Origin: Phyllobates terribilis
Taxonomy: Eukaryota
Reading direction: 5' to 3'
Length of the DNA stretch: 64,000 nucleotides
Assembly (NCBI RefSeq): GCF_046119375.1
Contig: NW_027362764.1
Span: 78,368,001-78,432,000 of the forward strand
The notes below the pieces were generated by a model that saw only the letters and a program-made list of their open reading frames with translations, did not search any database and was not told the origin of the DNA. This document shows positions 17,355 to 53,300 of the stretch, piece after piece (positions within the stretch are counted from its first letter, which is position 1; each line of letters begins with the position of its first letter). The position numbers were made by a program, and so were the translations under genes.

Positions 17355-17452
17355 TAGGGTTGGGGTTGGGGTTAGGGTTAGGGTTGGGCTAGGGTTAAGG
17401 TTGGGGTTGTATTAGAGTTGGGGTTGTACTAGGGTTGGGTTTAGGGTTGGGA
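17355..17452 (+). repeat. Degenerate telomere-like (TTAGGG/TTGGGG/CTAGGG)n
   Basis: gggttggggttggggttagggttagggttgggctaggg... Confidence 0.9.
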
Positions 17453-17494
17453 TTTTTTTCAAAAGTAAAAAAAAAATGATGACGATATAGCGAC

Positions 17495-17758
17495 TAGTGT
17501 TGAGCGCCAGTGTTCGCTACTTGAGTTTGCATTGGGTACTCGGGTATACACCATGTATCATGCATGCTCGAGTGACATGCTCGAGTCCCCGCCCGCATGT
17601 TTCACACTCGTGAATGGCAGACAATCCCTGCAAAGTTTTTTTGACTGCGAAGCATATGGGGCGGAGACTCGAGCATGTCACTCGAGCACCCGCGATACTC
17701 AGTGCATACCCGAGCACCCGATGCAAACTCAAGTAGCGAGCACTTGCGCTCAACACTA
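17495..17758. mobile_element. Palindromic hAT MITE (TAGTGTTGAGCG termini)
   Basis: tagtgttgagcg...cgctcaacacta with long internal inverted symmetry (gctcgagtgacatgctcgagtc / gactcgagcatgtcactcgagc). Confidence 0.85.
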
Positions 17759-17805
17759 GTCACCATATCGTCATCATTTTTTTTTTACTTTTGAAAAAAA
17801 TCCCA

Positions 17806-18008
17806 ACCCTAATACAACCCCAACCTTAACCCTAGCCCAACCCTAACCCTAACCCCAACCCCAACCCTAACCCTAGCCCAACCCTAACCCCAACCCTAAC
17901 CCCAACCTTAACCCTAGCCCAAGCCCAACCCTAACCCTAGCCCAACCCTAACCCCAACCCCAACCCTAACCCTAGCCCAACCCTAACCCTAGTACAACCC
18001 TAACCCTA
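17806..18008 (-). repeat. Degenerate telomere-like (CCCTAA/CCCCAA/CCCTAG)n
   Basis: aaccctaaccctagcccaaccctaac... Confidence 0.9.
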
Positions 18009-19482
18009 AAGTTTATTTTTTACGCCGTTCCTCGTGCGGTATAAGTGATTAGACGACTTTATTCTTTGGGTCGGTGCGATTACAGCAATACCAGAATCAT
18101 ATCGGGTTTTTATGATTGACAGCTGTCACACACTAAAAGATGCATTTTTTGTAAAACCTAGTTTTTGCATCAAAATATTTTGAGAGCTATAGTTTTTCCA
18201 TATTTTGTCCGACAGAGTCATGTGATGGCTTGTTTTTTGTGGAATGAGTTTACGTTTTTATTGGTACCATTTTTAGGCACGTGACATTTTTTGATCGCTT
18301 TCTATTCCGATTTCTTGGAGGCAGAATAAACAAAAACCAACAATTCAGGAATTGTTTTTTTTTTTTAAAAAATTTATGCTGTTCCGCGTGTGGTAAAATT
18401 GATAAGGTAGCTTTATTCTTCGGGTCAGTGGTACCACATTTATACAGTTTTTCTATGTTTTGGCGCTTTTACACAATAAAAGCTATTTTATAGAAAAAGT
18501 ATTTTTTTGCATAGCTTTATTCTGAAAGCAATAACTTTTTTATTTTTCGACTGATGGAGCTGTATGGCAGCTTGTTTTTTTCAGGGCAAGATGACATTTT
18601 CAGCGGTACCATTTTTATTTATATTCATCTTTTTGATCGCGTGTTATTCCATTTTTTGTTTGGCGGTATGATGATAAAGCATTGTTTTTTGCTTCATTTT
18701 TTTTTTTTTTTTTTTTTTTTACTGTATTCACTAAAGGAGTTAACTAGTGGGACAGTTTTATAGGTCAGGTCGTTCCGGACGTGGTGATACCAAATATGTG
18801 TACTTTTATTGTTTTTTTCATAATAATATTTATTGATGGGTACATTATATTTTTATTTTTGGTGGAATATTGTTTTGATTTTTTTTTTATATTTTTACAA
18901 TTTTTTTTTTTCATCTTTTAACACTTTTTTTACTTTTATACTTTGTCCCACTATGGGATTTTCACTTTTTTTACTCTGATCGCCTGTATAGCATAGGAAT
19001 GGAGCACCATCCCTGTGCTATATAGGCTGTCAGCGCTGCAGATGCAGAAGATGTCAGCACTGCAGATGCAGAAGTTACTTTGGTCATGCACTGCACATGA
19101 CTAAAGTATCTTCCTGCTGTCTGGTGATCCGGATGTTGTCATGACAACATCAGGTCGTCATGGCAACATCCGGGAAGCTGCGGCAGACAGCGTTGGACGC
19201 CGGCAGGAGAGGTGAGTATCGCGATCACCTCCCCTTGCCCCGCAATGCTGCGATCGACTTCGATTGCAGCATTGCGGGGGTTAATGTGCTGGGAGCAGTG
19301 CGGGACCGCTCCCAGCACATAGCACCGGGTGTCAGCTGTGACAATCAGCTGACACCCGGCGGCGATCGCGCCCACACAGTCTGTGTGCGGGCGAAATCAA
19401 CAGGGCGTACTAATACGTACCTGGCTTTTAAGGCCCAGGGCGCAGGTACGTATTAGTATGCCTTGGACTTTTAAGGGGTTAA

Positions 19483-19904: not shown

Positions 19905-20251
19905 TTAAGAAACTTTTATGTTGGCAATGTAGTACCATTTAAATACCACCTCCAGTCAAACCAATGGGTTGGGCCAGAGACTTCCCCGAATTTGCCATGG
20001 TTGTTTCCGAAAAATAAAGACGTTCCTGGCAAATTTAGTTTTGTTGTCGATTATCATCACATTGATAGGCATCCTGTCAGACCCTATCTCTTGCATGGCC
20101 TAATAGAAGTACTAAAATGAAAGCCATGGGGCCAGTGTTAGGCTACAGTAACCCATTACTACCCAGATTATTGCATCACTTGCAGAAAGAAGGTGTGATG
20201 AGTGACAGAAGTGCCTTCATCTGTTAACCATATAGATCATGCGCTGTCCGT

Positions 20252-22338
20252 TGTAACATACCTGGCGGCGTCCTTGCATGGTGGTCCATCTCCCACTGTG
20301 CAAGAGCGCGCACTTGATCTCCAGTCCAGAATGTCTCTCTGGCTTCCCTCCATGCTGTCTGTTTGTGTCTGTGTCTGCTGCTTAAGGGCGGCGCCCGATC
20401 ACTTCCTGCTTTTTGTACCTGCTGTGGGTCACACCCCTTGTGCGTCCTCAGCCTATTGCTGTCTGTCACCTGGTATATAGCTCAGCTGCTCCCATCTATC
20501 CCTGCCTGAGCATAGTGTTTCTTTCAGTGTGTGCCTTCACTCTGAAGATGCCAGGTCCCGTTCTTTGTCTCCTGTCTTTCGGTATCAGTTCCCGTGTCTG
20601 AACTGAGTCCTGTCTATGTCTCCTGCCTTGCGGTATCAGTTCCCGTGTCTGAACTGAGTCCTGTCTGTGTACTCTTGCCTGCTGCCTTTCCTGGAGGCTG
20701 TATTTCCAGGCCTGTCTGAACTAGCTCCTAGCCTGTTCCTCCTGCCTTCTAGGGGCCGATTACCTAGATCCGTTCCTGTATCTTGTCTGTCCTGTCTGAA
20801 CACGCTCCTAGCCTGTTCCTCCCGCCTTCTAGGGGTTGATTACCTAGATCCGTTCCTGTATCTTGTCTGTCCTGTCTGAACACGCTCCTTGTCTGTTCGT
20901 CCCGCCTCTCTGGGGGCCGATTACCCAGACCTGCTCCTGTATCTTGTCTGTCCTGTCTGAACACGCTCCTTGCCTGTTCGTCCCGCCTCTCTGGGGGCCG
21001 TATTCCCAGACCCGCTCCTGTGTCGGTCTCGTCCGTACACTCAGTTCCAGTCTGTACTCTCTCCTATCTTTCATCTGTCTTTTCTCTATGTCCGTTCCTT
21101 TCCTTTTTCTGCAGAGTCTGAACTCGTACCTAACTCCTGCCTGTTGTCTCTGTACTCCCGTTTGTGAGTTTGTGGTCCACTCGCTACTTCACTGCAAGTA
21201 CCCTGTGGGTGTCTGGCTCTGCCTTTCCCTTCCTGTCTGTTCCGTGTGAACAGAGCCCTGTCCCCCCTACTCAGCCTTGCCTGCTCTGACTCCTTTGCTC
21301 ACTGCTCCGGCGGTTCTAGCCTGCTCTGACTCCTTTGCTCACCGCTCCGGCGGTTCTAGCCTGCTCTGACTCCTTTGCTCACCGCTCCGGCGGTTCTAGC
21401 CTGCTCTGACTCCTTTGCTCACCGCTCCGGCGGTTCTAGCCTGCTCTGACTCCTTTGCTCACCGCTCCGGCGGTTCTAGTCTGCTCTGACTCCTTTGCTT
21501 ACCGCTCCGGCGGTTCTAGCCTGCTCTGACTCCTTTGCTCGCTGCTCCGGCAGCCTTGCTCCGCTCTGACCCTTTTGCTCGCTGCTCCGGCAGTCTCGCT
21601 CCACTCTTGCTCACCGCTCCAGGCGGCCTCGTCCTGCTTTACTCTTGCTCACTGCTCCAGCAGTCTCGCTCAGCTTTGATCCTTTGTTCACCGCTCCTGG
21701 CGGCCTTGTCCTGCTCTACTCTTGCTCACCGCTCCAGGCGGCCTTGTCCTGCCCTGTTCTCGCTCACCTCTCTGGGCGGCCTCACTCTGCTGTGTTTGTC
21801 CGCCACATCTGTGGCTCTGTTCCTGAGTCCCAGTGTGTACTGGGTCCTATCCCGCCAGTGTCCCTACCTGCTAGTGCCTCCCTGTCTGCACTCTAGCTGT
21901 GCTTGCCTGTACCCCTCTGCCTGTATTGTTCCTGAGTCCCAGTGTGTACTGGGTCCTATCCCGCCTGTGTTCCTACCTGCTAGTGCCTCCCTGTCTGCAC
22001 TCTAGCTGTGCTTGCCTGTACCCCCCTGCCTGCTTACCCGCCTGCCTGCATACCAGTCGTGCCTGCCTATACCCACCAGTCTGTGTGCCAGCCTACCAGT
22101 CTGTTCCTGTATTCCCCTGTGTGGGTCAACAGCCGTGTCCGGGGTCTGTCCTGGAGTAGCACCTGGTCCCTTTGCTCGGTTCCTCCTTGGTGCACTGGCG
22201 TCGTATGCCGTCGTGCGACCCTGGTCGGATCGGGTGAATACCTAGTTAAGCCCCTCCAGGCATTCACTCTCCGGCACGGTCCAGTGGAATCACTACAATC
22301 ACACGCACACGCCGCTCAGCCCGGGCGTGTGCATAACA
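20252..22338 (+). mobile_element. Solo LTR (2087 bp) expanded by internal minisatellites, with a 5-bp TSD
   Basis: tccgt|tgtaaca...cataaca|tccgt. TATA-like ggtatatagc near 20475. Internal tandem units of ~46, 79, 40 and 109 bp. Confidence 0.85.
21279..21545. repeat. 40-bp minisatellite (~6.5 copies) inside the solo LTR
   Basis: gcctgctctgactcctttgctcaccgctccggcggttcta repeated. Confidence 0.95.
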
Positions 22339-22529
22339 TCCGTGTCCTGCGGCGTCGCAGGCCGGTTGCCGGGGAGACGGGGGGGGTGACGCACGTCCTC
22401 CCCCCGTCACTTCCTGTGACCGCCGGCTGGCTGCGCCCCGGGGCGGGACATCATGACGCGTAGCGCGTCGATTCCCTATAGTCCCTGCTCCACTCACATA
22501 TATGGCCCCTATTCTTAACTTCACATCAC

Positions 22530-22569
22530 GCCTCCTGACGAAGCCGGAAGGTGAAACGCGCGTCGAGGC
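22530..22569 (+). ncRNA. Minimal type I hammerhead ribozyme (Penelope-like element type)
   Basis: GCCUC-CUGACGA-A-GCC(GGAA)GGU-GAAA-C(GCGC)G-UC-GAGGC. Stem I GCCUC/GAGGC, intact core, palindromic short stem III, GUC cleavage triplet. Confidence 0.8.
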
Positions 22570-23324
22570 TGCATGTGGGTTTCCTTTTCCATCGGAGCAC
22601 CATGACACTAGGTAATGCTGGCAGTTTATTATTTTGGCTGGTTCCGCATTTCTAACACAGAGGGGCTTCATTTGGTCACACATATTCGGCTATGCATCAT
22701 GCTCTCATATATATTTTTTGTATTATGTTCACTTTCTGACATGATTACTAGCCGTGTGATTATAATGTAGTTTGATTTATGCCCCGCATTTATATCTTAA
22801 ATGCTCTGTCTCCAGTGGCAGGAACTCATTGTGTCTCTTTGATCCTTTGGGTACACAAGAGATCTTATCACTCCCTATTCTACTATTTTAACAGTTTTCT
22901 TCCTCTTCCAAACCTGTTTTTGACACTGTTTTTTTGTTCTTGTGATAATGTATTATTCAAAATAAAATGTATCACTTTTGCATAAACTGACTCCACAGTT
23001 TAATCAATTCCCTGCTCTTTGAGACACACTGTTGTTTATATTAGAGATTTGGGAATGATAGCTCTTTCTTGGTATAACCATATAGATGATGTGACCATTA
23101 TTGGCCTCGGCATCTAAGTGGTAAAACAGACAGGATTGTAGTCATCTTTGACCCTGTCCAACGTAACAAGACCCTAGCGATCAGTTACAGCTGTGGTCCT
23201 CCAGTGATTATATGCATTAGGCCTCTCTACACCATCCATAACACCACCTTTAAGGCAATGTGCTACCACTGTAGTGTACACACCATCTTTTAACAGTTTA
23301 GCGGAAGATAGGATGGGCTGGTGG

Positions 23325-23511
23325 CAGTGGCATAACTTGAAGCTCAGGAGCCCCAATGCAGTTCCAACGAGACCCCCAATTATTTCAAGTCTTTAATATT
23401 ATTTATATTTAATTGTCTTTTTGTATGGGCAAATGGGACTTTTGGGGCCACCTAGACTCCAGAAGTCGGGTGTGATTGCAACCCCTGCACCTATTATAGT
23501 TACGTCCCTTG
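23325..23511. mobile_element. hAT-type MITE (CAGTGGCATAACT-type ends)
   Basis: cagtggcataact ... agttacgtcccttg, an imperfect TIR. Confidence 0.5.
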
Positions 23512-24635
23512 TTGGTGGAGTTAAGGGTCTGTCCACCTGTCCAAGATCAGATGTAGATGTCCATGTGAAATTTGTGCAAATTTGACGATGGTAACGTCAA
23601 TGTACCTAGGTAATAGAGTAGGTGATTCTGCCCAGAAGACAACATTTTTTGGATCAGGCACCACAGACAAGCTCATCTTTAGCACCTTACAAGCCCTGCA
23701 TATGTTTCATGGGATCGGATTTGAAACAAAATAGATATAAAAATTCTACGTTCAGGTCCTTAGTCCACATCGCCCCTGAAAAGCGACATTTATTATTCTA
23801 TATCACCCCTATAAGATACGGAGAAACGAATGTCACAGGCAGCCACGTCTCTCTGCTTAAAGTTAAACATTGCACTTTATTTTAGGAAATCTGTCATGTA
23901 TTATCCTTTATCCTGCAAATCCAGGATTAAAGTCAGCAACCCGTCTAATCCAGGCATTTATGGGCAGAATAATTTCTGGATTTTCCAGTGTATGGAGCCC
24001 AACAGAGGCTCTCTGGTCATATTGGGAACACTATAAAGCATCTTTGTCTTTTCCAATTCATTTTATACTAGCAATTTGTTCCTTACTGTGTAAATCAATA
24101 GATTGACAGATTTCCATCATTCACAACTCATTACAGGACTGTACAGCCGGTGTCCGACCACCAGGAGCACTAAATACAACCACATTCTGCTAATCACAAC
24201 CAGCAAACACCATGAAGAAAGCAATCAGCAGAAATATAGGAATCCTTAATGACGATTGGGTAAAATAGTCAAAAACATTTAGGGTTAAATCTATGGATTT
24301 ACCCCTGTTAAAAAAATGCTAACTGCTAGGTGCACATGTATGTATGTATCTACAAATCTAAAAAATCTATCTAAATGAATGAATCTATCTACTGTAAATC
24401 TATCATCTAGCTATCTATTCTTGACCAAGGTTCGGTGTACTTGAGCTGAAATGTTTCCTTTTTCCACATGGGCCAATAAACCTGCACTTTTTGCATGATA
24501 TCATCTCTGGAGCGCTGCCTACATTTTTGGGGTTATCCTGTGCAAATTGGTTATCGACTTACAACCTGTGGGTTTGAACCTTCTGCCATTTTTATATGCT
24601 TGTGCTGCCTCATTTTCTCTGTTCTATCTCATGTT

Positions 24636-24703
24636 TATCTATCTATCTATCTATCTATCTATCTGTCTATCTATCCCATATCTATCATCTATCTATATTT
24701 TTT
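24636..24703. repeat. (TATC)n microsatellite
   Basis: Direct reading. Confidence 0.95.
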
Positions 24704-25009
24704 TGGTACAAATTAGAACAGTACACAATGTATAAAATATGGGTGCAGTGACTCCCATGCAAAGAAACCAATCTTGCATAAATATATATAAAAAAAAGAA
24801 AAAAGGCAGCACTACAATATTTACCAAAAATATAAAGGACTTTAATCAGCCCATATGACATGGTGACGGTTCGGTTGAAGTGAACCTTTCTCAAGCAGTG
24901 AGTAAGTGTACAATGAAGATATAGTGCTGCATTACATATTCATCTGGGAACATTGCACACCACTTTTTATTATATTTCTAATTTTCCTGTCAATTATGTT
25001 TTGTGGACT

Positions 25010-26005: not shown

Positions 26006-27640
<1,635 letters not shown>

Positions 27641-32795: not shown

Positions 32796-34416
32796 CAGTG
32801 GGTACGGAAAGTATTCAGACCCCTTTACATTTTTCACTCTTTGTTTCATTGCAGCCATTTGGTAAATTCTAAAAAGTTCATTTTTTTCTCATTAAAGTAC
32901 ATTCTGCACCCCATCTTGACTGAAAAAAACAGAAATGTAGAAATTTTTGTAAATTTATTAGAAAAGAAAAACTGAAATATCACATGGTCATAAGTATTCA
33001 GACCCTTTCCTCATTATTGAGTAGAAGCACCTTTTTGAGCTAATACAGCCATGAGTATTCTTGGGAGCGATGCAACAAGTTTTTCACACCTGGATTTGGG
33101 GATCCTCTGCCATTCATCCTTGCAGATCCTCTCCAGTTCCGTCAGGATGGATGGTGAACGTTGGTGGACAGCCATTTTCAGGTCTCTCCAGAAATGCTCA
33201 ATTGAGTTTAGACCAGGGCTCTGGCTGGGCCAGTCAAGAATGGTCACAGAGTTGTTCTGAAGCCACGTCTTTGTTATTTTAGCTGTGTGCTTCGGGTCAT
33301 TGTCTTGTCAGAAGGTGAACCTTCGGCCAAGTGTGAGGTACACAGCATTCTGGAAGAGGTTTTCATCCAGGATATCTCTGTACTTGGCCGCATTCATGTT
33401 TCCTTCAATTACAACCAGTCGTCCTGTCCCTGCAGCTGAAAAACACCCCCCATAGCTTGATGCTGCCACCACCATGTTTCACTGTTGGGATTGTATTGGG
33501 CAGGTGCCTGGTTTTTCCCACACATACCGCTTAGAATTATCACCAAAAGGTTCTATCTTCGTCTCATCAGACCAGAGAATCTTATTTCTCATAGTCTGAG
33601 AGTCCTTCATGTGTTTTTGAGCAAACTCTATGCGGGCTTTCATATGTCTTGCACTGAGGAGATGCTTCCGTCGGGCCACTCTGCCATAAAAGCCCAACTG
33701 GTGGAGGGCAGCAGTGATAGTTGACTTTGTGGAACTTTCTCCCATCTCCCTACTGCATCTCTGAAGCTCAGCCACAGTGATCTTGGGGTTCTTCTTTACC
33801 GCTCTCACCAAGGCTCTTCTCCCACGATTGCTCAGTTTGGCTGGACGGCCAGGTCTAGGAAGACTTCTGGTGGTCCCAAACTTCTTCCATTTAAGGATTA
33901 TGGAGGCCACTGTGCTCTTAGGAACCTTGAGTAACGCAGAAATTCTTTTGTAACCTTGGGCAGATCTGTGCCTTGCCACAATTTTGTCTATGAGCTTTTT
34001 GGGCAGTTCCTATGAGCTCATGATTCTCATTTGGTCTGACATGCACTGTGAGCTGTGAAGTCTTATATAGATAGGTGTGTGCCTTTCCTAATCAAGTCCT
34101 GTTAGTTTAATTAAACACAGCTGGACTCCAATGAAGGAGTAGAACCATCTCAAGGAGGATCACAAGGAAATGGACACCATGTGACTTAAATATGAGTGTC
34201 TGAGCAAAGGGTCTGAATACTTATGACCATGTGATATTTTTTTTCTTTTTTAATAAATTTTCAAAAATTTCTACATTTCTATTTTTTTTCAGTCAAGATG
34301 GGGTGCAGAGTGTACTTTAATGAGAAAAAAATGAACTTTTTAGAATTTACCAAATGGCTGCAATGAAACAAAGAGTGAAAAATTTAAAGGGGTCTGAATA
34401 CTTTCCGTACCCACTG
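32796..34416 (-). mobile_element. Full-length Tc1 transposon of a second family, TA TSD
   Basis: ta|cagtgggtacggaaagtattcagacccc...ggggtctgaatactttccgtacccactg|ta, with long TIRs. Confidence 0.97.
33014..34021 (-). pseudogene. Decayed Tc1 transposase
   Basis: ARHRSAQGYKRISALLKVPKSTV...ILWSDETKIE...WPSQSPGLNSIEHFW...KGASTQ. Frameshifted and with a short deletion. Confidence 0.92.
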
Positions 34417-36468: not shown

Positions 36469-38105
<1,637 letters not shown>

Positions 38106-40476: not shown

Positions 40477-41430
40477 TTACACCACATTTCTTGTGAATAC
40501 GTTTTGACTATCTATAAGCAACTTTCCTTGTAAAGGGGTATGAAGAACTTGCACCTTGACGTTGGATCTCATTTTAACTCTTGAAAATGCAACGTAGAGT
40601 TGTCCATGACCAAAAACGGGCTCCGGTAGATATATGCCAACACGGTGTAGAGTTTGACCTTGTGACTTGTTTATTGTCATGGCAAAAGCTGGTTTTACTG
40701 GAAACTATCGACGCCAAAGCCTAAATGGAAGACTGGTGTTCGAAGGACATAAATTAATGCGTGGAATGAACACTTTGTCTCCTTTTGCTGATCCAGTGAT
40801 CACTCTTGCTTGAATTACCTGGGAATGGAGTCCAGAAACAATAAGGCGAGTTCCATTACATAGATCATTTTTTGTATTTAGATTCCGCTGCAGCATTACG
40901 ATTGTTCCAACTTTGAGTTATAGTCTGTGGGATGGCATTCCTGATGGCGTAAGACTATTTAAAAATTAACTGGATACTGCTCTCGTTCATCTTCATTGTC
41001 TACATCCACTGAATCATCACTTTTGTACAACTTATACTTTCCAGGCATTCTATCCATCACACGGGAATTTAGCAGAGCCACGTCATCGTTCTTGGGACAG
41101 AACTCTCAACACTGCTTTGGTCGTTCACATCAATTTCAACGCATTGTCCAAAAACATCACTTACGATGCAGTCAGTGCACAACATGTCTTCTGGTATTTC
41201 AATAATGTTTTCTCCAAGGTTGTATTCGTTGCTAAGTTCACCGTTACCAAGTTTAAGAAGCCACTTGCTGTACTCTGTGTCAGAAGATCGCATGTTGTTA
41301 ATTAGTTGGAGTTTATTAAACTGTTTCCAAATGTCAGCCATTTTTAAGCTGGACTCGATAACATCTGTTCTTGTTCCATTTGGTATGACTGGAAGGCATT
41401 GCCTAAAATCTCTGCCAATGACAAAATGTG
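40477..41430 (-). pseudogene. Helitron PIF1-family helicase, C-terminal part (motifs III-VI)
   Basis: G(R)DFRQCLPV, LINNMRS, MLQRNLN...[28 protein letters not shown]. Stops and frameshifts present. Confidence 0.95.
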
Positions 41431-43420
41431 GCATTTGTAGGCGGTCCAAATACGCAGAGGTAGGCAAACAATTCACGAAGTTGCTTAGGCATATGTAGGG
41501 TAACTGAGTCTTCTAAAGTAAGTCTCTACACAATATCATCCAATAGAAGTCCTAAAGCCAAAGCTGCAGCTTTAAATGTATCGTTCAATACTCCGTTAAC
41601 AGTTTTCAAATCGTCATAACTTGTAGCTCCTTTCACATGCAGTAGTAACAGCCGAAGGCAATATCTTTCTTGATACTTGACACTAACAGTATACATGCGT
41701 CCAATTATTCTGCTAAGTCCTCATTGTCTTGGATTCCAAGTGTTATTCCAAACGTAATGCTCTGGAATCTCTCGATACAAATACTGCCTTGCGATTTCGT
41801 TACGTTGGTTCAGCAAAAACCATTCCATTAATGTTGACTTCGTGCTTAAAGTTTTTGAGACATCTTTCACTTGAGAATCTTCAAAGAAATAAAGCTGCTG
41901 TTGATTTGGTAAATGAATAGCTAAACGTATAATGGCATGGGACTGTGAATGCATTGGAAATGCAAGTATCCTCCAAGCAGCTTCTGGAGCACTCACATAT
42001 CTTGAGTCAACAAAAGTTGATGATTCTTCGTGATTGACTGTTTTCTGTTGTATTTCAACGTTAGCTTTGTCATGCCCCTTGTAGATGTACTTGAAAAGAT
42101 ATTTTACACTTTTTATTGAAGCACAGATTTCTACATTGATGTGACAGTTGTAGCGTTTTAATAAGTACGGGTTGTATGGAACTATCCATGAGTTATTTAT
42201 AATTTTTTTTGTTGCGAACAATGTTATCAATGTGTTGTCGCTGGTAGGATGGGTAGCCATCCAAGTCTTTAACAGTGTGCTGTTTGAACTCCTTTGGAAA
42301 CCCTTTTGTACACTTTCCGTTTTCCATGCATGGACTTTTTGGATTTGCTACACGCCATGGGCCATGAACCATATGAGAGACTACAATATTATACAGTTCA
42401 GGATACTTTTCTTGTTTAGGAATTTCAGCCCACACTATGTTGTCAATTTCTTCCTCCGTGTGAAACTTGGAATCCGCGTCTAAGATAATTAGTATATGCG
42501 CATGTGGGAGACCTCGTTTCTGAAACTCTATGACGTGTACCATTGCTACAACTGTTCCAAAAAGCCCATTTTTGATGTCTTTCAAAAGGCTGCTGAGTTT
42601 CAGTGAAAATACGTGTGCGACTAAGTCCGGCCTGTGTTCAACTTGTTGCCAGGGTTCTAGATTTTCGGTAATTTCCGGCCATTTTGGATTACAGGTCATT
42701 GTCACAAAAATGTCAGGTCTTCCATACTTTGTTACTATTCCCATTGAATCTTGATAACGCTGTTGCATGTTGCGGGGGCTACCTTCAAAAGACGACGGGA
42801 GAATTACTGTTTTTCCAATTGGAATTCCCTTTTGAATTGATTGTTTTTGCAAATGTTCTTGAAGAATACAGTAGTCTTCAGCTTTATGTTTTTGGTTCAT
42901 TCGTATGAAATTTAGATGATTTGCTTCAATTTTAACGTATGAGTCGACTAAGTACTGTTGTGTCAGTTTCCCACCGTTTAAAATAGGATTGAAGTAATTT
43001 CGGACAGACAGAAGAAAACTGTAGTACTGCAGTTGTGTAATTCTTCTTGAAGTTCCTTGCTGGTGTAGGTTTTCATGCCACCCTTGATCACCTCTTGGAA
43101 AGAATAACGGATACAGAAGAGCATCAAGGTTGCTGTGCAAAATGCTAATTCGTTGTGTCTTAGGAACCAAAGGGTTGTTTTGGTCTGGCTTAAGATGGAC
43201 TAATATATCCCTTTGAAAGGGAGGCTCTCCGTCATCGTTTTGAAAAACAACTGCGACCTCACTTACACGTAGTTTGTTGTAAAGTCGGGGATCCTATTTA
43301 CGTTCTTGTTTAATGGCCATGACAATAGAAGGCATTTCAGTCCCATTTTGTATAGCCCTCTGTTCCTCCTTCAACATCTTTTAGCATGCGATTTGCGGCA
43401 GCAAATGGGCTGATTTTTTG
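41431..43420 (-). pseudogene. Helitron Rep (HUH/Y2 endonuclease) region
   Basis: FVTMTCNPKW (motif 1), EFQKRGLPHAHIL (HUH), KYLFKYIYKG (Y2), YPLFFPRG, LLLLHVKGA. Confidence 0.95.
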
Positions 43421-44306
43421 TCAATGTACGGCAATTTGGTTCATCAGTTCAGCATCACACTTTTCGTTTTCTTTCAGGTTCATCCTTTGTTCTGTAGCCT
43501 CATTTGTATCAAGGATGTATAATTGTGCAAATTTTGGTGGTTGTCCTCTTTCTGGGTGAAGTGTTCCAGTGCGGTGGTAGATCTGGCCGTGAATTTTAAA
43601 ACAATACGGTCCGAATCCAGGGGGCGGTGCAATGTTGGCACCAAATGAAGCAAACACATGAGAACTGTTGATGCTTCTGATATTTTCCATAAAATTTCTA
43701 CTGTGTTGATGCGTTCCTTTCATCAACTGCTCAAACAGATCTGAGTAGTGAGGTCTCGGTAGCATAACTTTTCCTTTTTGGCAGCATTGAGTAAACTGAT
43801 TGTCAGATGGTTTTTCATCAATAAAATTCAGAGAGTCGCATTTAGAGCAAACTGCATTCATATTCCCACAGTAGTGTTCAATAATTGTAGTTTCGTTTTT
43901 CTGTTACGTAACGTGCAAGTTGTTGAATATTCTGCGGGACTTGCCTTAGCTGGTGGAGCATTCGTTTTTTATGAATTTGGCGGTCATGTTGTTGTCTGTT
44001 TGCCCTGGATTGTGGAGATTCATTCACCCCACGTTGTCTGTGGGATTCCGCATCGTGTTCCTGCCTAGCGGCAGGGTGTTGTGATGCCTCCTGTTCCCGA
44101 CGTTGTCTCTGTGAATCAGCTACTTGTACCTGTCGTGTGGCAGTTTGTTGTGGTGTTTCCTGTTGGCGACTTTGTCTGTGAGATTCCGCATCCTGGGCTT
44201 GTCTGGTGGCAGTTTGTTGAAGTGTCTCTTGCTCTCGACGTTGTCGTTGCCTTGCTGCTGCTGCTTTTCTGTCATCCTCATTGGTGTATTTTCGTTTACG
44301 ACCCAT
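43421..44306 (-). pseudogene. Helitron RepHel N-terminus: Q/R-rich repeats and Cys-rich region
   Basis: MGRKRKY..., then after a frameshift CSKC...FIDE...CCQKGKV, FASFGA, GPYCFKIHGQIYH, AQLYILD. Confidence 0.9.
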
Positions 44307-44349
44307 TGGAAAACAGGAAGCGTAAATCGTGATAGCATACAGTAAAGAA

Positions 44350-47300
44350 GTATCTGTTCAGTGCGCTGAGACTGACAGAACGTGTTCAGTAAACGTGAGT
44401 GAACTACGTGGCACTGTGACTGACAGTACTTGTTCAGTAAACGTGACTGAACTACATGGCACTGTGACTGACAGTACTTGTTTAGTAAACGTGACTGGAC
44501 TATGTGGCACTGTGACTGACAGTACTTGTTCAGTAAACGTGACTGAACTACATGGCACTGTGACTGACAGAACTTGTTCAGTAAACGTGACTGAACTACG
44601 TGGCACTGTGACTGACAGTACTTGTTCAGTAAACGTGAGTGAACTACGTGGCACTGTGACTGACAGAACTTGTTCAGTAAATGTGACTGAACTACGTGGC
44701 ACTGTGACTGACAGTACTTGTTCAGTAAACGTGACTGAACTACGTGGCACTGTGACAGACAGAACTTGTTCAGTAAATGTGACTGAACTACGTGGCACTG
44801 TGACTGACAGAACTTGTTCAGTAAACGTGACTGAACTACGTGGCACTGTGACTGACAGTACTTGTTCAGTAAACGTGACTGAACTACGTGGCACTGTGAC
44901 TGACAGTACTTGTTCAGTAAACGTGACTGAACTACGTGGCACTGTGACTGAGAGAACTTGTTCAGTAAACGTGACTAAACTACATCACACTGTGACTGAC
45001 AGAACTTGTTCAGTAAACGTGACTAAACTACATCACACTGTGACTGACAGAACTTGTTCAGTAAATGTGAGTGGACTACGTGGCACTGTGATTGACAGAA
45101 CTTGTTCAGTAAACGTGACTAAACTACGTGGCACTGTGACTGAAAGAACTTGTTCAGTAAACGTGACTGAACTACGTGGCACTGTGACTGACAGAACTTG
45201 TTCAGCAAACGTGACTGAACTACATGGCACTGTGACTGACAGAACTTGTTCAGTAAACGTGACTGAACTACGTGGCACTGTGACTGACAGTACTTGTTCA
45301 GTAAACGTGAGTGAACTACGTGGCACTGTGACTGACAGAACTTGTTCAGTAAATGTGACTGAACTACGTGGCACTGTGACTGACAGTACTTGTTCAGTAA
45401 ACGTGACTGAACTACATGGCACTGTGACTGACAGTACTTGTTTAGTAAACGTGACTGGACTATGTGGCACTGTGACTGACAGTACTTGTTCAGTAAACGT
45501 GACTGAACTACATGGCACTGTGACTGACAGAACTTGTTCAGTAAACGTGACTGAACTACGTGGCACTGTGACTGACAGTACTTGTTCAGTAAACGTGACT
45601 GAACTACGTGGCACTGTGACTGAGAGAACTTGTTCAGTAAACGTGACTGAACTACATCGCACTGTGACTGACAGAACATGTTCAGTAAACGTGACTGAAC
45701 TACGTGCACTGTGACTGACAGAAATTGTCCAGTAAACCTGACTGAACTACGTGGCACTGTGACTGACAGAACTTGTTCAGTAAATGAGAGTGAACTATGT
45801 GGCACTGTGACTGACAGAACTTGTTCACTAAACGTGAGTGAACTACATGGCACTGTGACTGACAGAACTTGCTCAGTAAACGTCAGTGAACTACGTTGCA
45901 CTGTCACTGACAGAACTTGTTCAGTAAACGTGACTGAACTACGTGGCACTGTGAGTGACAGAACTTGTTCAGTAAACGTGAGTGAACTATGTGGCACTGT
46001 GACTGACAGAACTTGTTCAGTAAACGTGACTAAACTACATCACACTGTGACTGACAGAACTTGTTCAGTAAACGTGACTAAACTACATCACACTGTGACT
46101 GGCAGAACTTGTTCAGTAAATGTGAGTGAACTACGTGGCACTGTGACTGACAGAACTTGTTCAGCAAACGTGACTGAACTACGTGGCACTGTGACTGACA
46201 GAATTTGTTCAGTAAACGTGACTGAACTACATCGCACTGTGACTGACAGAACTTGTTCAGTAAACGTGACTGAACTACGTGGCACTGTGACTGATAGAAC
46301 TTGTTCAGTAAACGTGACTGAACTACATCACACTGTGACTGACAGAACTTTTTCAGTAAATGTGAGTGAACTACGTGGCACTGTGACTGAAAGAACTAGT
46401 TCTGTAAACGTGACTGAACTACGTGGCACTGTGACTGAAAGAACCTGTTCCGTAAACGTGACTGAACTACGTGAGACTGTGACTGACAGAACTTGTTCAG
46501 TAAACGTGAGTGAACTATGTGGCACTGTGACTGACAGAACTTGTCCAGTAAACATGACTGAACTACATCACACTGTGACTGACAGAACTTGTTCAGTAAA
46601 CGTGAGTGAACTACGTGGCACTGTGACTGACAGAATTTGTTCAGTAAACGTGAGTGAACTATGTGGCACTGTGACTGACAGAACTTGTTCAGTAAACGTG
46701 ACAGAACTACGTGGCACTGTGACTGACAGTGCTTGTTCAGTAAACGTGACTAAACTACGTGGCACTGTGACTGACAGAACTTGTTCGGTAAACGTGACTA
46801 AACTATGTGGCACTGTGAGTGACAGAACTTGTTCAGTAAACGTGAGTGAACTATGTGGCACTGTGATTGACAGAACTTGTTCAGTAAACGTAACTGGATT
46901 ACATGGCACTGTGACTGACAGAACTTGTTCCGTAAACGTGACTAAACTACGTGGCACTATGAGTGACAGAACTTGTTCAGTAAACGTGAGTGAACTACAT
47001 GGCACTGTGACTGACAGAACTTGTCCAGTAAACCTGACTGAACTACATCACAGTGTGACTGACAGAAATTGTTCAGTAAATGTGAGTGAACTACGTGGCA
47101 CTGTGACTGACAGAACTTGTTTAGTAAATGTGACTGAACTACGTGGCACTGTGACTGACAGAACTTGTTCAGTAAACGTGACTAAACTACATCACACTGT
47201 GACTGACAGAACTTGTTCAGTAAACGTGAGTGAACTATGTGTCACTGTGACTGACAGAACTTGTCCAGTAAACGTGACTGAACTACATCACACTGTGACT

Positions 47301-50300
47301 GACAGAACTTCTTCAGCAAATGTGAGTGAACTACGTGGCACTGTGACTGACAGAACTTGATCAGTAAACGTGACAAAACTACGTGGCACTGTGACTGACA
47401 GAACTTGTTCAGTAAACGTGAGTGAACTACGTGGCACTGTGACTGACAGAACTTGTTCAGTAAACGTGACTAAACTACGTGGCACTGTGACTGACAGGAC
47501 TTGTTCAGCAAATGTGAGTGAACTACGTGGCACTGTGACTGACAGAACTTATTCAGTAAATGTGACTGAACTACATGGCACTGTGACTGACAGAACTTGT
47601 TCAGTAAACATGACTAAACTACGTGGCACTGTGAGTGACAGAACTTGTTCAGTAAACGTGAGTGAACTACGTGGCACTGTGACTGACAGAACTTGTTCAG
47701 TAAACGTGACTAAACTACATCACACTGTGACTGACAGAACTTGTTCAGTAAACGTGACTAAACTACATCACACTGTGACTGGCAGAACTTGTTCAGTAAA
47801 TGTGAGTGAACTACGTGGCACTGTGATTGACAGAACTTGTTCAGTAAACGTGACTAAACTACGTGGCACTGTGACTGAAAGAACTTGTTCAGTAAACGTG
47901 ACTGAACTACGTGGCACTGTGACTGACAGAACTTGTTCAGCAAATGTGACTGAACTACGTGGCACTGTGACTGACAGAATTTGTTCAGTAAACGTGACTG
48001 AACTACATCGCACTGTGACTGACAGAACTTGTTCAGTAAATGTGACTGAACTACGTGGCACTGTGACTGATAGAACTTGTTCAGTAAACGTGACTGAACT
48101 ACATCACACTGTGACTGACAGAACTTTTTCAGTAAATGTGAGTGAACTACGTGGCACTGTGACTGAAAGAACTTGTTCTGCAAACGTGACTAAACTACGT
48201 GGCACTGTGACTGAAAGAACCTGTTCCGTAAACGTGACTGAACTACGTGGGACTGTGACTGACAGAACTTGTTCAGTAAACGTGAGTGAACTATGTGGCA
48301 CTGTGACTGACAGAACTTGTCCAGTAAACATGACTGAACTACATCACACTGTGACTGACAGAACTTGTTCAGTAAACGTGAGTGAACTACGTGGCACTGT
48401 GACTGACAGAATTTGTTCAGTAAACGTGAGTGAACTATGTGGCACTGTGACTGACAGAACTTGTTCAGTAAACGTGACAGAACTACGTGGCACTGTGACT
48501 GACAGTGCTTGTTCAGTAAACGTGACTAAACTATGTGGCACTGTGACTGACAGAACTTGTTCGGTAAACGTGACTAAACTATGTGGCACTGTGAGTGACA
48601 GAACTTGTTCAGTAAACGTGAGTGAACTATGTGGCACTGTGATTGACAGAACTTGTTCAGTAAACGTAACTGGATTACATGGCACTGTGACTGACAGAAC
48701 TTGTTCCGTAAACGTGACTAAACTACGTGGCACTATGAGTGACAGAACTTGTTCAGTAAACGTGAGTGAACTACATGGCACTGTGACTGACAGAACTTGT
48801 CCAGTAAACCTGACTGAACTACATCACAGTGTGACTGACAGAAATTGTTCAGTAAATGTGAGTGAACTACGTGGCACTGTGACTGACAGAACTTGTTTAG
48901 TAAATGTGACTGAACTACGTGGCACTGTGACTGACAGAACTTGTTCAGTAAACGTGACTGAACTACATCACACTGTGACTGACAGAACTTGTTCAGTAAA
49001 CGTGAGTGAACTATGTGTCACTGTGACTGACAGAACTTGTCCAGTAAACGTGATTGAACTACATCACACTGTGACTGACAGAACTTGTTCAGCAAATGTG
49101 AGTGAACTACGTGGCACTGTGACTGACAGAACTTGTTCAGTAAACGTGACTAAACTACGTGGCACTGTGACTGACAGAACTTGTTCAGTAAACGTGAGTG
49201 AACTACGTGGCACTATGACTGACAGAACTTTTTCTGTAAACGTGACTAAACTACGTGGCACTGTGACTGACAGGACTTGTTCAGCAAATGTGAGTGAACT
49301 ACGTGGCACTGTGACTGACAGAACTTGTTCAGTAAATGTGACTGAACTACATGGCACTGTGACTGACAGAACTTGTTCAGTAAACATGACTAAACTACGT
49401 GGCACTGTGAGTGACAGAACTTGTTCAGTAAACGTGAGTGAACTACGTGGCACTGTGACTGACAGAACTTGTTCAGTAAACGTGACTAAACTACATCACA
49501 CTGTGACTGACAGAACTTGTTCAGTAAACGTGACTAAACTACATCACACTGTGACTGACAGAACTTGTTCAGTAAATGTGAGTGAACTACATGGCACTGT
49601 GATTGACAGAACTTGTTCAGTAAACGTGACTAAACTACGTGGCACTGTGACTGAAAGAACTTGTTCAGTAAACGTGACTGAACTACGTGGCACTGTGACT
49701 GACAGAACTTGTTCAGCAAACGTGACTGAACTACGTGGCACTGTGACTGACAGAACTTGTTCAGTAAACGTGACTGAACTACGTGGCACTGTGACTGATA
49801 GAACTTGTTCAGTAAACGTGACTGAACTACATCACACTGTGACTGACAGAACTTTTTCAGTAAATGTGAGTGAACTACGTGGCACTGTGACTGAAAGAAC
49901 TTGTTCTGTAAACGTGACTGAACTATGTGGCACTGTGACTGAAAGAACCTGTTCCGTAAACGTGACTGAACTACGTGGGACTGTGACTGACAGAACTTGT
50001 TCAGTAAACGTGAGTGAACTATGTGGCACTGTGACTGACAGAACTTGTCCAGTAAACATGACTGAACTACATCACACTGTGACTGACAGAACTTGTTCAG
50101 TAAACGTGAGTGAACTACGTGGCACTGTGACTGACAGAATTTGTTCAGTAAACGTGAGTGAACTATGTGGCACTGTGACTGACAGAACTTGTTCAGTAAA
50201 CGTGACAGAACTACGTGGCACAGTGACTGACAGTGCTTGTTCAGTAAACGTGACTAAACTACGTGGCACTGTGACTGACAGAACTTGTTCGGTAAACGTG

Positions 50301-53300
50301 ACTAAACTATGTGGCACTGTGAGTGACAGAACTTGTTCAGTAAACGTGAGTGAACTATGTGGCACTGTGATTGACAGAACTTGTTCAGTAAACGTAACTG
50401 GATTACATGGCACTGTGACTGACAGAACTTGTTCCGTAAACATGACTAAACTACGTGGCACTATGAGTGACAGAACTTATTCAGTAAACGTGAGTGAACT
50501 ACATGGCACTGTGACTGACAGAACTTGTCCAGTAAACCTGACTGAACTACATCACAGTGTGACTGACAGAAATTGTTCAGTAAATGTGAGTGAACTACGT
50601 GGCACTGTGACTGACAGAACTTGTTTAGTAAATGTGACTGAACTACGTGGCACTGTGACTGACAGAACTTGTTCAGTAAACGTGACTAAACTACATCACA
50701 CTGTGACTGACAGAACTTGTTCAGTAAACGTGAGTGAACTATGTGTCACTGTGACTGACAGAACTTGTCCAGTAAACGTGACTGAACTACATCACACTGT
50801 GACTGACAGAACTTCTTCAGCAAATGTGAGTGAACTACGTGGCACTGTGACTGACAGAACTTGATCAGTAAACGTGACAAAACTACGTGGCACTGTGACT
50901 GACAGAACTTGTTCAGTAAACGTGAGTGAACTACGTGGCACTGTGACTGACAGAACTTGTTCAGTAAACGTGACTAAACTACGTGGCACTGTGACTGACA
51001 GGACTTGTTCAGCAAATGTGAGTGAACTACGTGGCACTGTGACTGACAGAACTTGTTCAGTAAATGTGACTGAACTACATGGCACTGTGACTGACAGAAC
51101 TTGTTCAGTAAACATGACTAAACTACGTGGCACTGTGAGTGACAGAACTTGTTCAGTAAACGTGAGTGAACTACGTGGCACTGTAACTGACAGAACTTGT
51201 TCAGTAAACGTGACTAAACTACATCACACTGTGACTGACAGAACTTGTTCAGTAAACGTGACTAAACTACATCACACTGTGACTGGCAGAACTTGTTCAG
51301 TAAATGTGAGTGAACTACGTGGCACTGTGATTGACAGAACTTGTTCAGTAAACGTGACTAAACTACGTGGCACTGTGACTGAAAGAACTTGTTCAGTAAA
51401 CGTGACTGAACTACGTGGCACTGTGACTGACAGAACTTGTTCAGCAAATGTGACTGAACTACGTGGCACTGTGACTGACAGAATTTGTTCAGTAAACGTG
51501 ACTGAACTACATCGCACTGTGACTGACAGAACTTGTTCAGTAAATGTGACTGAACTACGTGGCACTGTGACTGATAGAACTTGTTCAGTAAACGTGACTG
51601 AACTACATCACACTGTGACTGACAGAACTTTTTCAGTAAATGTGAGTGAACTACGTGGCACTGTGACTGAAAGAACTTGTTCTGCAAACGTGACTAAACT
51701 ACGTGGCACTGTGACTGAAAGAACCTGTTCCGTAAACGTGACTGAACTACGTGGGACTGTGACTGACAGAACTTGTTCAGTAAACGTGAGTGAACTATGT
51801 GGCACTGTGACTGACAGAACTTGTCCAGTAAACATGACTGAACTACATCACACTGTGACTGACAGAACTTTTTCAGTAAATGTGAGTGAACTATGTGGCA
51901 CTGTGACTGACAGAACTTGTTCAGTAAACGTGACAGAACTACGTGGCACAGTGACTGACAGTGCTTGTTCAGTAAACGTGACTAAACTACGTGGCACTGT
52001 GACTGACAGAACTTGTTCGGTAAACGTGACTAAACTATGTGGCACTGTGAGTGACAGAACTTGTTCAGTAAACGTGAGTGAACTATGTGGCACTGTGATT
52101 GACAGAACTTGTTCAGTAAACGTAACTGGATTACATGGCACTGTGACTGACAGAACTTGTTCCGTAAACATGACTAAACTACGTGGCACTATGAGTGACA
52201 GAACTTATTCAGTAAACGTGAGTGAACTACATGGCACTGTGACTGACAGAACTTGTCCAGTAAACCTGACTGAACTACATCACAGTGTGACTGACAGAAA
52301 TTGTTCAGTAAATGTGAGTGAACTACGTGGCACTGTGACTGACAGAACTTGTTTAGTAAATGTGACTGAACTACGTGGCACTGTGACTGACAGAACTTGT
52401 TCAGTAAACGTGACTAAACTACATCACACTGTGACTGACAGAACTTGTTCAGTAAACGTGAGTGAACTATGTGTCACTGTGACTGACAGAACTTGTCCAG
52501 TAAACGTGACTGAACTACATCACACTGTGACTGACAGAACTTCTTCAGCAAATGTGAGTGAACTACGTGGCACTGTGACTGACAGAACTTGATCAGTAAA
52601 CGTGACAAAACTACGTGGCACTGTGACTGACAGAACTTGTTCAGTAAACGTGAGTGAACTACGTGGCACTGTGACTGACAGAACTTGTTCAGTAAACGTG
52701 ACTAAACTACGTGGCACTGTGACTGACAGGACTTGTTCAGCAAATGTGAGTGAACTACGTGGCACTGTGACTGACAGAACTTGTTCAGTAAATGTGACTG
52801 AACTACATGGCACTGTGACTGACAGAACTTGTTCAGTAAACATGACTAAACTACGTGGCACTGTGAGTGACAGAACTTGTTCAGTAAACGTGAGTGAACT
52901 ACGTGGCACTGTAACTGACAGAACTTGTTCAGTAAACGTGACTAAACTACATCACACTGTGACTGACAGAACTTGTTCAGTAAACGTGACTAAACTACAT
53001 CACACTGTGACTGGCAGAACTTGTTCAGTAAATGTGAGTGAACTACGTGGCACTGTGATTGACAGAACTTGTTCAGTAAACGTGACTAAACTACGTGGCA
53101 CTGTGACTGAAAGAACTTGTTCAGTAAACGTGACTGAACTACGTGGCACTGTGACTGACAGAACTTGTTCAGCAAATGTGACTGAACTACGTGGCACTGT
53201 GACTGACAGAATTTGTTCAGTAAACGTGACTGAACTACATCGCACTGTGACTGACAGAACTTGTTCAGTAAATGTGACTGAACTACGTGGCACTGTGACT

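What the first reader, a model, noticed from the sequence alone, without database searches (positions are those of the whole stretch)
22530..22569. Near-canonical minimal hammerhead ribozyme, likely a dimer-cleaving PLE type
Seen: stem I GCCUC/GAGGC, core CUGACGA...GAAA, stem II GCC/GGU with a GGAA loop, and a very short stem III with a palindromic CGCGCG. Cleavage is predicted after GUC (C22564). The G-U closing stem II may be a CpG decay of G-C. Known: Penelope-like elements carry minimal type I hammerheads whose palindromic stem III allows cleavage as dimers. The flank (TATA-like cacatatatgg upstream, AT-rich tail with aataaa downstream) fits a pLTR. No RT ORF is adjacent, so this may be a non-autonomous, retrozyme-like unit.
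Basis: partly seen in the sequence, partly recalled or inferred. Interest (0 to 1): 0.7.

Follow-up and report, generated by a model that had tools for sequence, protein, structure and literature searches.

The report
Hammerhead in truncated Neptune retrotransposon
This small hammerhead motif sits in the broken-off end of a protein-coding Penelope-type jumping gene, a known arrangement, but many sister copies begin right at its predicted cut, which likely records that the motif cut some of the RNAs before they were copied into the genome.

Summary
The motif is real (22530-22569). It is not a retrozyme. It lies in a ~745-bp, 5'-truncated 3' end of a Neptune-type Penelope-like element (PLE), with a 13-bp target-site duplication. 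A young 2.09-kb solo LTR later split the fragment 14 nt from its start.

Sister copies continue upstream into RT, Cys-linker and GIY-YIG coding sequence, and related subfamilies form full tandem elements. The G-U pair closing stem II is the family state, not decay of this copy. Stems I and II covary between families. Computed energies favour a dimer fold. With one copy in 64 kb, this locus is probably inert.

The interest lies at family level. Of 40 insertion 5' ends near the motif in four families, 24 lie just after the predicted transcription start, 16 at +1..+13 from the predicted cut, and none in the 16 nt before it. This likely records cleavage in vivo; RT stalling in stem I is the rival. 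The scan had noted this pattern elsewhere in this genome (e1-8631584), and the ORF1-ORF2 slippery site in other genomes. No RNA evidence was obtained.

The parts
20225..20237 (+). Left copy of the 13-bp target-site duplication of the PLE insertion; its last 3 nt also match the element (microhomology)
   Evidence: Identical to 23075-23087
20238..20251 (+). First 14 nt of the PLE fragment; 20247-20251 is the left copy of the LTR's 5-bp duplication
   Evidence: 20235-20251 matches, letter for letter over 17 nt, the sister copy L004 just upstream of the sequence that resumes at 22344
20252..22338 (+). Solo LTR (TG...CA, 2,087 bp) of a young gag-only LTR element, inserted into the PLE fragment; not part of the hammerhead unit
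   Evidence: First 309 bp 99-100% identical in 40 of 40 scored places; both ends match the two LTRs of L313 and L314, which flank a gag-like ORF and have 5-bp duplications
22339..23076 (+). Rest of the 5'-truncated PLE 3' terminal repeat (pLTR), short 3' class without the ~50-nt tail; 22339-22343 is the right copy of the LTR's duplication
   Evidence: 84-96% identical to 29 other loci, nearly all ending at about 23076; sisters extend upstream into RT-EN coding sequence
22497..22505 (+). TATA-like box of the pLTR promoter; transcription start predicted near A22528
   Evidence: TATA-like stretch at the same spacing in related families; upper edge of one cluster of insertion 5' ends. The start site is inferred
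22530..22569 (+). Minimal type I hammerhead: stem I 5 bp, core, extra A, stem II 3 bp closed by G-U, palindromic helix III; predicted cut between 22564 and 22565
22602..22611 (+). ATG plus 7 nt: predicted first coding exon of ORF1
   Evidence: ATG-N6-G|GT lies about 40-60 nt after the cut in 20 of 20 loci picked for diverse loops (read by eye); position
22612..23074 (+). 5' part of a predicted GT-AG intron, cut off by the end of the insertion; holds AATAAA (22961-22966) and a conserved stretch at 22987-22998
   Evidence: In full-length relatives, removing a 615-695-nt GT..AG stretch joins the ATG in frame to ORF1 (L111, L130, L139). No spliced contig was seen
23075..23087 (+). Right copy of the 13-bp target-site duplication; first 2 nt shared with the element's end

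Best explanation
The motif is the minimal hammerhead in the terminal repeat of a Neptune-type Penelope-like retrotransposon, carried here by a 5'-truncated copy that is likely inert, while in active elements it likely cuts a fraction of the RNAs as a two-strand dimer. Shown by sequence: the ~745-bp fragment with its 13-bp duplication, the later solo-LTR insertion, coding sisters, full tandem relatives with one hammerhead per 4.6-5.3-kb unit, and two fixed 3' ends. Inferred steps: (1) a pLTR promoter starts RNA about 37 nt before the cut, so the hammerhead sits at the very 5' end; (2) the PLE enzyme nicks target DNA and starts reverse transcription inside unspliced RNA, about 515 or 567 nt after the cut; (3) it copies back to the RNA's 5' end or drops off earlier. 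RNAs begun at the promoter give copies that start at -44..-17, RNAs cut by the hammerhead give copies that start at +1..+13, and read-through RNAs from an upstream unit give longer copies. The window copy starts at about -235 and spans the cut site, so its template was a read-through RNA that was not cut there. (4) Alone, the 40-mer is predicted to misfold; two copies can pair through the 8-nt palindrome and both stems I to form two cores.
For: Family continuity to RT and GIY-YIG frames. Motifs DKG, YIDD, Cys linker and GIY-YIG in an 834-aa frame; a weak Pfam RVT_1 match in 2 of 3 proteins, below cut-off. Tandem full-length relatives. Duplications of 10-15 bp at 11 or more of the 35 other insertions; 3' ends: 24 tailed, 11 short, 1 other of 36. 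Compensatory changes between families at I.2 (U-A to C-G) and II.2 (C-G to G-C) in positions that the pattern left free; 21 of 21 distinct sequences paired at both, 0 of 2,000 shuffles reached the count. Energies: monomer hammerhead -6.5, monomer misfold -13.5, double hammerhead -31.1, two misfolds -27.0 kcal/mol. 5' ends: 24 / 0 / 16 in -44..-17 / -16..-1 / +1..+13, six of the 16 at +1 or +2.
Against: No cleavage or expression was measured. The +1..+13 cluster coincides with the 3' arm of stem I and its extension, so RT stalling would give a similar picture. Junctions carry microhomology or filler, so positions are uncertain by about 3 nt. One family (D) has 0 of 7 short copies at the cut. 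A family with a G-A mismatch closing stem II has still spread, with tandem copies, so a perfect core may not be needed. The covariation reflects a few lineage changes, not many events. In the anole Poseidon element, hammerhead mutants inserted normally in vitro and no RNA-seq reads began or ended at the cut (PMC11167929, part 2). Eight of nine Xenopus retrozyme dimers did not cleave (bioRxiv 10.64898/2026.07.22.740005, part 3). No full-length copy of the window's own subfamily was found among 40 scored of 160 candidates; its promoter-exon-ORF1 layout is taken from relatives whose coding DNA is about 75% identical.
Confidence: 0.85

Rival explanations
1. The element identity is as above, but the hammerhead does not cut in vivo. 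The fold is kept for another role (protein binding, promoter or 5'-end structure), and the copies that start at +1..+13 arise because reverse transcriptase stalls in stem I.
For: Stem I and its extension span +1..+13 in read-through RNA. A G-A-closed family has spread. The published in vitro and RNA-seq data on a lizard PLE show no need for cleavage (PMC11167929). Activity of such motifs is low in vitro (PMC4209133).
Against: The edge is sharp: 0 ends in -16..-1, although the predicted monomer helix continues to -4. Four ends lie at +1 and two at +2, the far side of the stem for an enzyme that comes from 3'. The four families share the same 5-bp stem I yet differ (13 cut-side against 9 start-side for GGAA loops, 3 against 15 for other loops; post hoc p 0.01). 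The core is kept while the flanks diverge.
Confidence: 0.35
2. One reading: a non-autonomous retrozyme-like unit that propagates as short hammerhead-bounded repeats or circles.
For: No ORF in the window. 17 of 36 insertions of the subfamily are short pieces of about 500-600 bp that start at the hammerhead, which can look like a non-coding family. Retrozymes are proposed to derive from pLTRs (bioRxiv 10.64898/2026.07.22.740005).
Against: One hammerhead in 64 kb. No short head-to-tail repeat in any copy examined; tandem spacing is 4.6-5.3 kb with the ORFs between. 5' ends form a truncation series that reaches 3.8 kb into coding sequence.
Confidence: 0.04
3. This particular copy is transcribed, from its own promoter or the inserted LTR, and self-cleaves as a working host ribozyme.
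For: The core is intact and identical to the family's commonest form; the TATA-like box is retained; a young LTR lies 190 nt upstream in the same orientation.
Against: The copy is only about 4% from its nearest sisters, so an intact 40-mer needs no selection. It has no partner in cis, and the monomer hammerhead fold has probability 8e-6.
Confidence: 0.05

Closest known systems
Minimal hammerheads in PLE terminal repeats (Cervera and de la Pena 2014, PMC4209133, parts 1-2 of 4 read; Lunse et al. 2017 not held, seen only as cited in PMC6765202 passages)
   Same: Type I fold, extra nucleotide between 9 and 10.1, palindromic helix III, location in the pLTR, mostly single motifs from truncated copies, predicted dimer action. 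That paper counts about 9,000 such motifs in Xenopus tropicalis.
   Different: Stem II is only 3 bp, closed by G-U instead of the G10.1-C11.1 that the paper calls highly conserved; helix III keeps a full 8-nt palindrome.
Neptune clade of EN+ Penelope-like elements (Craig et al. 2021, PMC8557442, passages read)
   Same: [quoted passage not shown]
   Different: The tail here is about 50 nt rather than 30-40. Full-length relatives have a separate ORF1 and an ORF2 in the -1 frame with a U-UUU-UUA site. The paper's Fig. 1 legend mentions an ORF1 frameshift for some PLEs; the figure itself could not be seen.
Poseidon element of Anolis (Frangieh et al. 2024, PMC11167929, parts 1-2 of 4 read)
   Same: Two fixed 3' ends that match two internal RT start sites; unprocessed RNA as template; hammerhead in the pLTR.
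   Different: There the hammerhead overlaps the start codon and no RNA ends were seen at the cut. Here it lies 38-60 nt upstream of the ATG and genomic copies pile up at the cut.
Animal non-LTR retrozymes (PMC7229834, passages read; bioRxiv 10.64898/2026.07.22.740005, parts 1-3 of 5 read)
   Same: Type I hammerhead that needs a dimer; link to PLE pLTRs.
   Different: Those are short tandem non-coding repeats with a hammerhead in each unit. This is a single truncated end of a coding element.

Membership tests
PLE minimal type I hammerhead | Core CUGANGA...GAAA, NUH cut site, helices I and II | tested here: met
   covariation between families
PLE minimal type I hammerhead | [quoted passage not shown] | tested here: met
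   A22542; feature from PMC4209133
PLE minimal type I hammerhead | Palindromic 15.2-16.2 and loop 3 | tested here: met
   22556-22563 equals its reverse complement
PLE minimal type I hammerhead | G10.1-C11.1 pair (described as highly conserved, not part of the search descriptor) | tested here: not met
   G-U here and in 31 of 51 distinct motifs held, G-C in 19, G-A in 1; the pair is kept as a wobble
PLE minimal type I hammerhead | Self-cleavage as a dimer | not testable with these tools
   Energies only
Rfam Hammerhead_1 (RF00163) | Score at or above the gathering threshold (34 bits) | tested here: not met
   25.4 bits; not filed as a canonical Rfam member
EN+ Penelope-like element | RT followed by C-terminal GIY-YIG domain | tested here: met
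   In sister copies L031, L032, L036 and relative L044; absent from the window fragment itself
EN+ Penelope-like element | pLTRs, partial tandems, inverted mates, optional tail, target-site duplication | tested here: met
EN+ Penelope-like element | Retained spliceosomal intron | tested here: inconclusive
   Conserved ATG-donor and in-frame join predicted; no spliced contig in 3 runs of uncertain type
Neptune clade | CX2-5CxxC linker between RT and EN | tested here: met
   Shared with Nematis; Li et al. report only Neptune and Poseidon in vertebrates
Neptune clade | Placement in an RT tree with named reference elements | not tested
Non-LTR retrozyme | At least two consecutive short repeat units, each with a hammerhead | tested here: not met
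Non-LTR retrozyme | Family encodes no protein | tested here: not met

The most novel reading that the evidence does not exclude
Insertion junctions are a fossil record of PLE hammerhead cleavage in the germ line. The ribozyme sits at the very 5' end of the promoter-started RNA, clips off a ~37-nt capped leader from part of the RNAs, and the decapped RNA is still reverse-transcribed. The share of copies that start at the cut differs by family, so it could serve as a genome-wide read-out of ribozyme activity in vivo, and the cut may act as a switch from message to template.
Probability: 0.45. Interest if true: 0.65.

Novelty: new member of a known kind. Interest (0 to 1): 0.36.

Why it matters
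The locus itself is ordinary: one of more than a thousand such motifs in this genome. The family data touch an open question. Craig et al. 2021 call hammerhead function in EN+ PLEs unclear, and Frangieh et al. 2024 found no RNA ends at the cut. A two-peaked distribution of insertion starts with an empty gap just before the cut is indirect evidence that cleavage happens in vivo, and it can be tested across all families by computation alone. Two searches listed no paper whose title or opening abstract text reports this pattern; the library lacks most subscription papers, and supplements were not read.

Tried and rejected
Expression: no RNA holder listed; the three runs offered are only guessed to be RNA, with shares of 0.06, 0.00 and 0.00. 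Laid on the window, they gave short pieces of relatives and no joint. Laid on a full-length relative, they gave no joint at the predicted intron. These are no evidence either way.

Control family with a G-A pair closing stem II: only 6 places, none truncated near the motif, so uninformative for the cut-site test.

Extra G opposite the cap, or extra T before +1: all four +1 junctions are preceded by T, but filler and microhomology make this unreadable.

Pseudoknot after the slippery site: only a 5-bp hairpin in part of the copies, none in others; not supported.

Compensatory change in the stem I extension of the window copy: explained by two CpG transitions, so not counted.

Other Rfam hits in 20000-25000 are chance-level.

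The primary paper on dimer cleavage (Lunse et al. 2017) was not held. A search for a published PLE ribosomal frameshift gave 0 papers. A look-up of earlier findings by sequence gave nothing.

Rows left out of the 5'-end count: L277 (alignment slip, extends upstream), L282 (starts at the anchor), L283 (-48, outside both clusters), all copies that extend further upstream, and three window-family copies that start at +282..+348. Head-to-head pairs and one triple duplication were each counted once.

Full report
Observation. The motif is present as described at 22530-22569. Rfam's type I hammerhead model matches at 25.4 bits, below its curated threshold of 34. The core pattern occurs once in the window and in none of 100 shuffles. 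The window lies in a 10.6-Gb genome. I did not determine the organism; the repeat content suggests an amphibian (inference).

Boundaries. A search with 22440-22700 gave 42 matches from 40 scored of 696 candidates. The window matches these loci over 22339-23076. Upstream of 22339 lies a 2,087-bp TG...CA element (20252-22338) flanked by a 5-bp duplication. Beyond it the family sequence resumes for 14 nt, followed by a 13-bp duplication shared with 23075-23087. The inserted element is a solo LTR: both its ends match the paired LTRs of two gag-only elements. The original insertion was therefore about 745 bp.

What the family is. Sister copies extend up to 3.8 kb further upstream, through about 1.2 kb of non-coding sequence into frames that encode RT, a Cys-rich linker and a GIY-YIG domain. 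The motifs were checked in an 834-aa frame of a related subfamily. Pfam RVT_1 matched 2 of 3 proteins weakly, below cut-off. Related subfamilies that carry the identical hammerhead form tandem units of 4.6-5.3 kb, one hammerhead per unit. Inverted partial mates occur. Of 36 independent insertions (40 places scored of 137 candidates), 24 end with a ~50-nt tail, 11 end short like the window copy, and 1 ends elsewhere. These are hallmarks of EN+ PLEs, and the linker points to Neptune (PMC8557442, passages). No reference tree was built. No PLE coding remnant lies in the window. No full-length copy of the window's own subfamily was found.

The hammerhead in its family. U11.1 is the common state: 94 matches with GGAA-GGT, and 90 of the first 100 listed of 294 matches where C or T was allowed (by eye). 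The core CpG keeps its C in 91 of 94. The G-U is therefore inherited, not a lesion of this copy. A loose pattern finds 1,142 motifs against 0 for its control. Among 21 distinct motifs from the first 30 loci, free positions pair and covary: I.2 U-A (14), C-G (6), U-G (1); II.2 C-G (12), G-C (7), U-G (2). These are a few lineage-level changes, and the shuffle control ignores relatedness. As a monomer the hammerhead fold is 7 kcal/mol above a misfold in which the core pairs with the cut site. The double hammerhead (-31.1) beats two misfolded monomers (-27.0) and is close to the dimer minimum (-31.7). The model ignores tertiary contacts.

Layout around it. A TATA-like box lies about 30 nt before the motif across families, which puts the predicted start near A22528, 37 nt before the cut. 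An ATG followed by 7 nt and a GT lies about 40-60 nt after the cut in 20 of 20 loci that I picked for diverse loops. In full-length relatives, removing a GT..AG stretch joins this ATG to an ORF1 of about 255-270 aa. The acceptor was chosen as the one that gives the longest frame, so the intron is a prediction. AATAAA lies inside it, 110-170 nt before the two 3' ends, and the tail ends just after the predicted acceptor. The template was therefore likely unspliced and uncut at the poly(A) site, as proposed for the anole element (PMC11167929).

Where copies begin. With a 3' anchor, the 36 insertions of the window's subfamily start as follows: 9 at -39..-17, 0 at -16..-1, 8 at +1..+11, 16 further upstream and 3 far downstream. 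Three other families, anchored at +16 or +18 with the upstream bases left free, gave 8 / 0 / 3 (27 places), 0 / 0 / 5 (26 places) and 7 / 0 / 0 (11 places), mapped. In total 24 / 0 / 16, with four ends at +1 and two at +2. An empty 16-nt gap has probability about 2e-6 if ends were uniform over the 57 nt; the bins were drawn after seeing the first family. The upstream cluster begins about 30 nt after the TATA-like box in the three families that show it, which fits run-off at a promoter-made end. The downstream cluster begins at the predicted cut, which fits run-off at a cleaved end.

Against this reading. The same 13 nt are the 3' arm of stem I and its extension, so stalling remains possible. 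Junctions have filler and microhomology. One family shows no cut-side copies. A family with a G-A mismatch closing stem II has also spread. The published lizard data show no ends at the cut.

This copy. It starts at about -235 and spans the cut site intact, so it came from a read-through RNA that was not cut here. It is about 4% from its nearest sisters, has no partner in cis, and is most likely a passive relic. The sequencing runs offered were not informative.

Comparison and verdict. It works like, and lies where, the minimal PLE hammerheads of PMC4209133 do, with a shorter, G-U-closed stem II. It fails the retrozyme definition (tandem short units, no protein). The element is a new member of a known kind. 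The locus is ordinary; the family-level junction pattern is a moderately interesting and testable clue to in vivo cleavage, already noted once by this scan on other DNA of this genome. Papers were read in the parts named under Closest known systems. PMC3846280, PMC6431247 and PMC6765202 were seen as passages. Supplements were not read, and published alignments there may already hold this motif variant.

Noticed in passing
L044, L061, L066, L071, L139, L140, L145, L146 and others (not in the window): Full-length relatives have ORF1 and a -1-frame RT-EN ORF2 that overlap at T-TTT-TTA in 19 of 20 distinct junctions; ORF1's stop lies 44 codons on in 17 of 20. The search motif fixed Arg-Phe/Ser-Leu, so the test is only partly free. 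Candidate programmed -1 frameshift; seen here before the look-up, and noted by the scan in other genomes.
   Followed up: partly
window 20252-22338; L313, L314: Very young LTR family (99-100% identical at 40 of 40 scored places, 551 candidates) with 2.1-kb LTRs full of internal tandem repeats; the two complete copies examined carry a gag-like ORF of 650-765 aa; no other frame over 250 aa except one antisense frame.
   Followed up: partly
L046, L047, L040, L223: In 4 of 4 insertions of the window's subfamily with an inverted mate, one arm ends with the tail and the other ends short.
   Followed up: partly
L180, L315-L320: A family with a G-A mismatch closing stem II has multiplied, with tandem and inverted copies, which suggests relaxed selection on that pair.
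   Followed up: partly
L036:5339-5797: A pLTR piece that ends about 232 nt before the cut is joined directly to the middle of the RT frame, almost the point where the window copy begins (-235); chance or a preferred junction.
   Followed up: no
window 44366-64000: A 19.6-kb satellite with a basic period of about 48 bp (89-90% matches) that runs to the window's end; its first units overlap the frames upstream of a Helitron-like region.
   Followed up: no
window 41069-44357 (minus strand): Broken frames that resemble a Helitron Rep/helicase gene (resemblance recalled, not searched).
   Followed up: no
window 26331-27421, 33479-34009, 36794-37886: Tc1/mariner-like transposase frames, two of them near-identical copies (resemblance recalled, not searched).
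   Followed up: no
window 17355-18009: Degenerate telomere-like hexamer arrays in opposite orientations, and a 110-bp tandem array at 1-1399.
   Followed up: no
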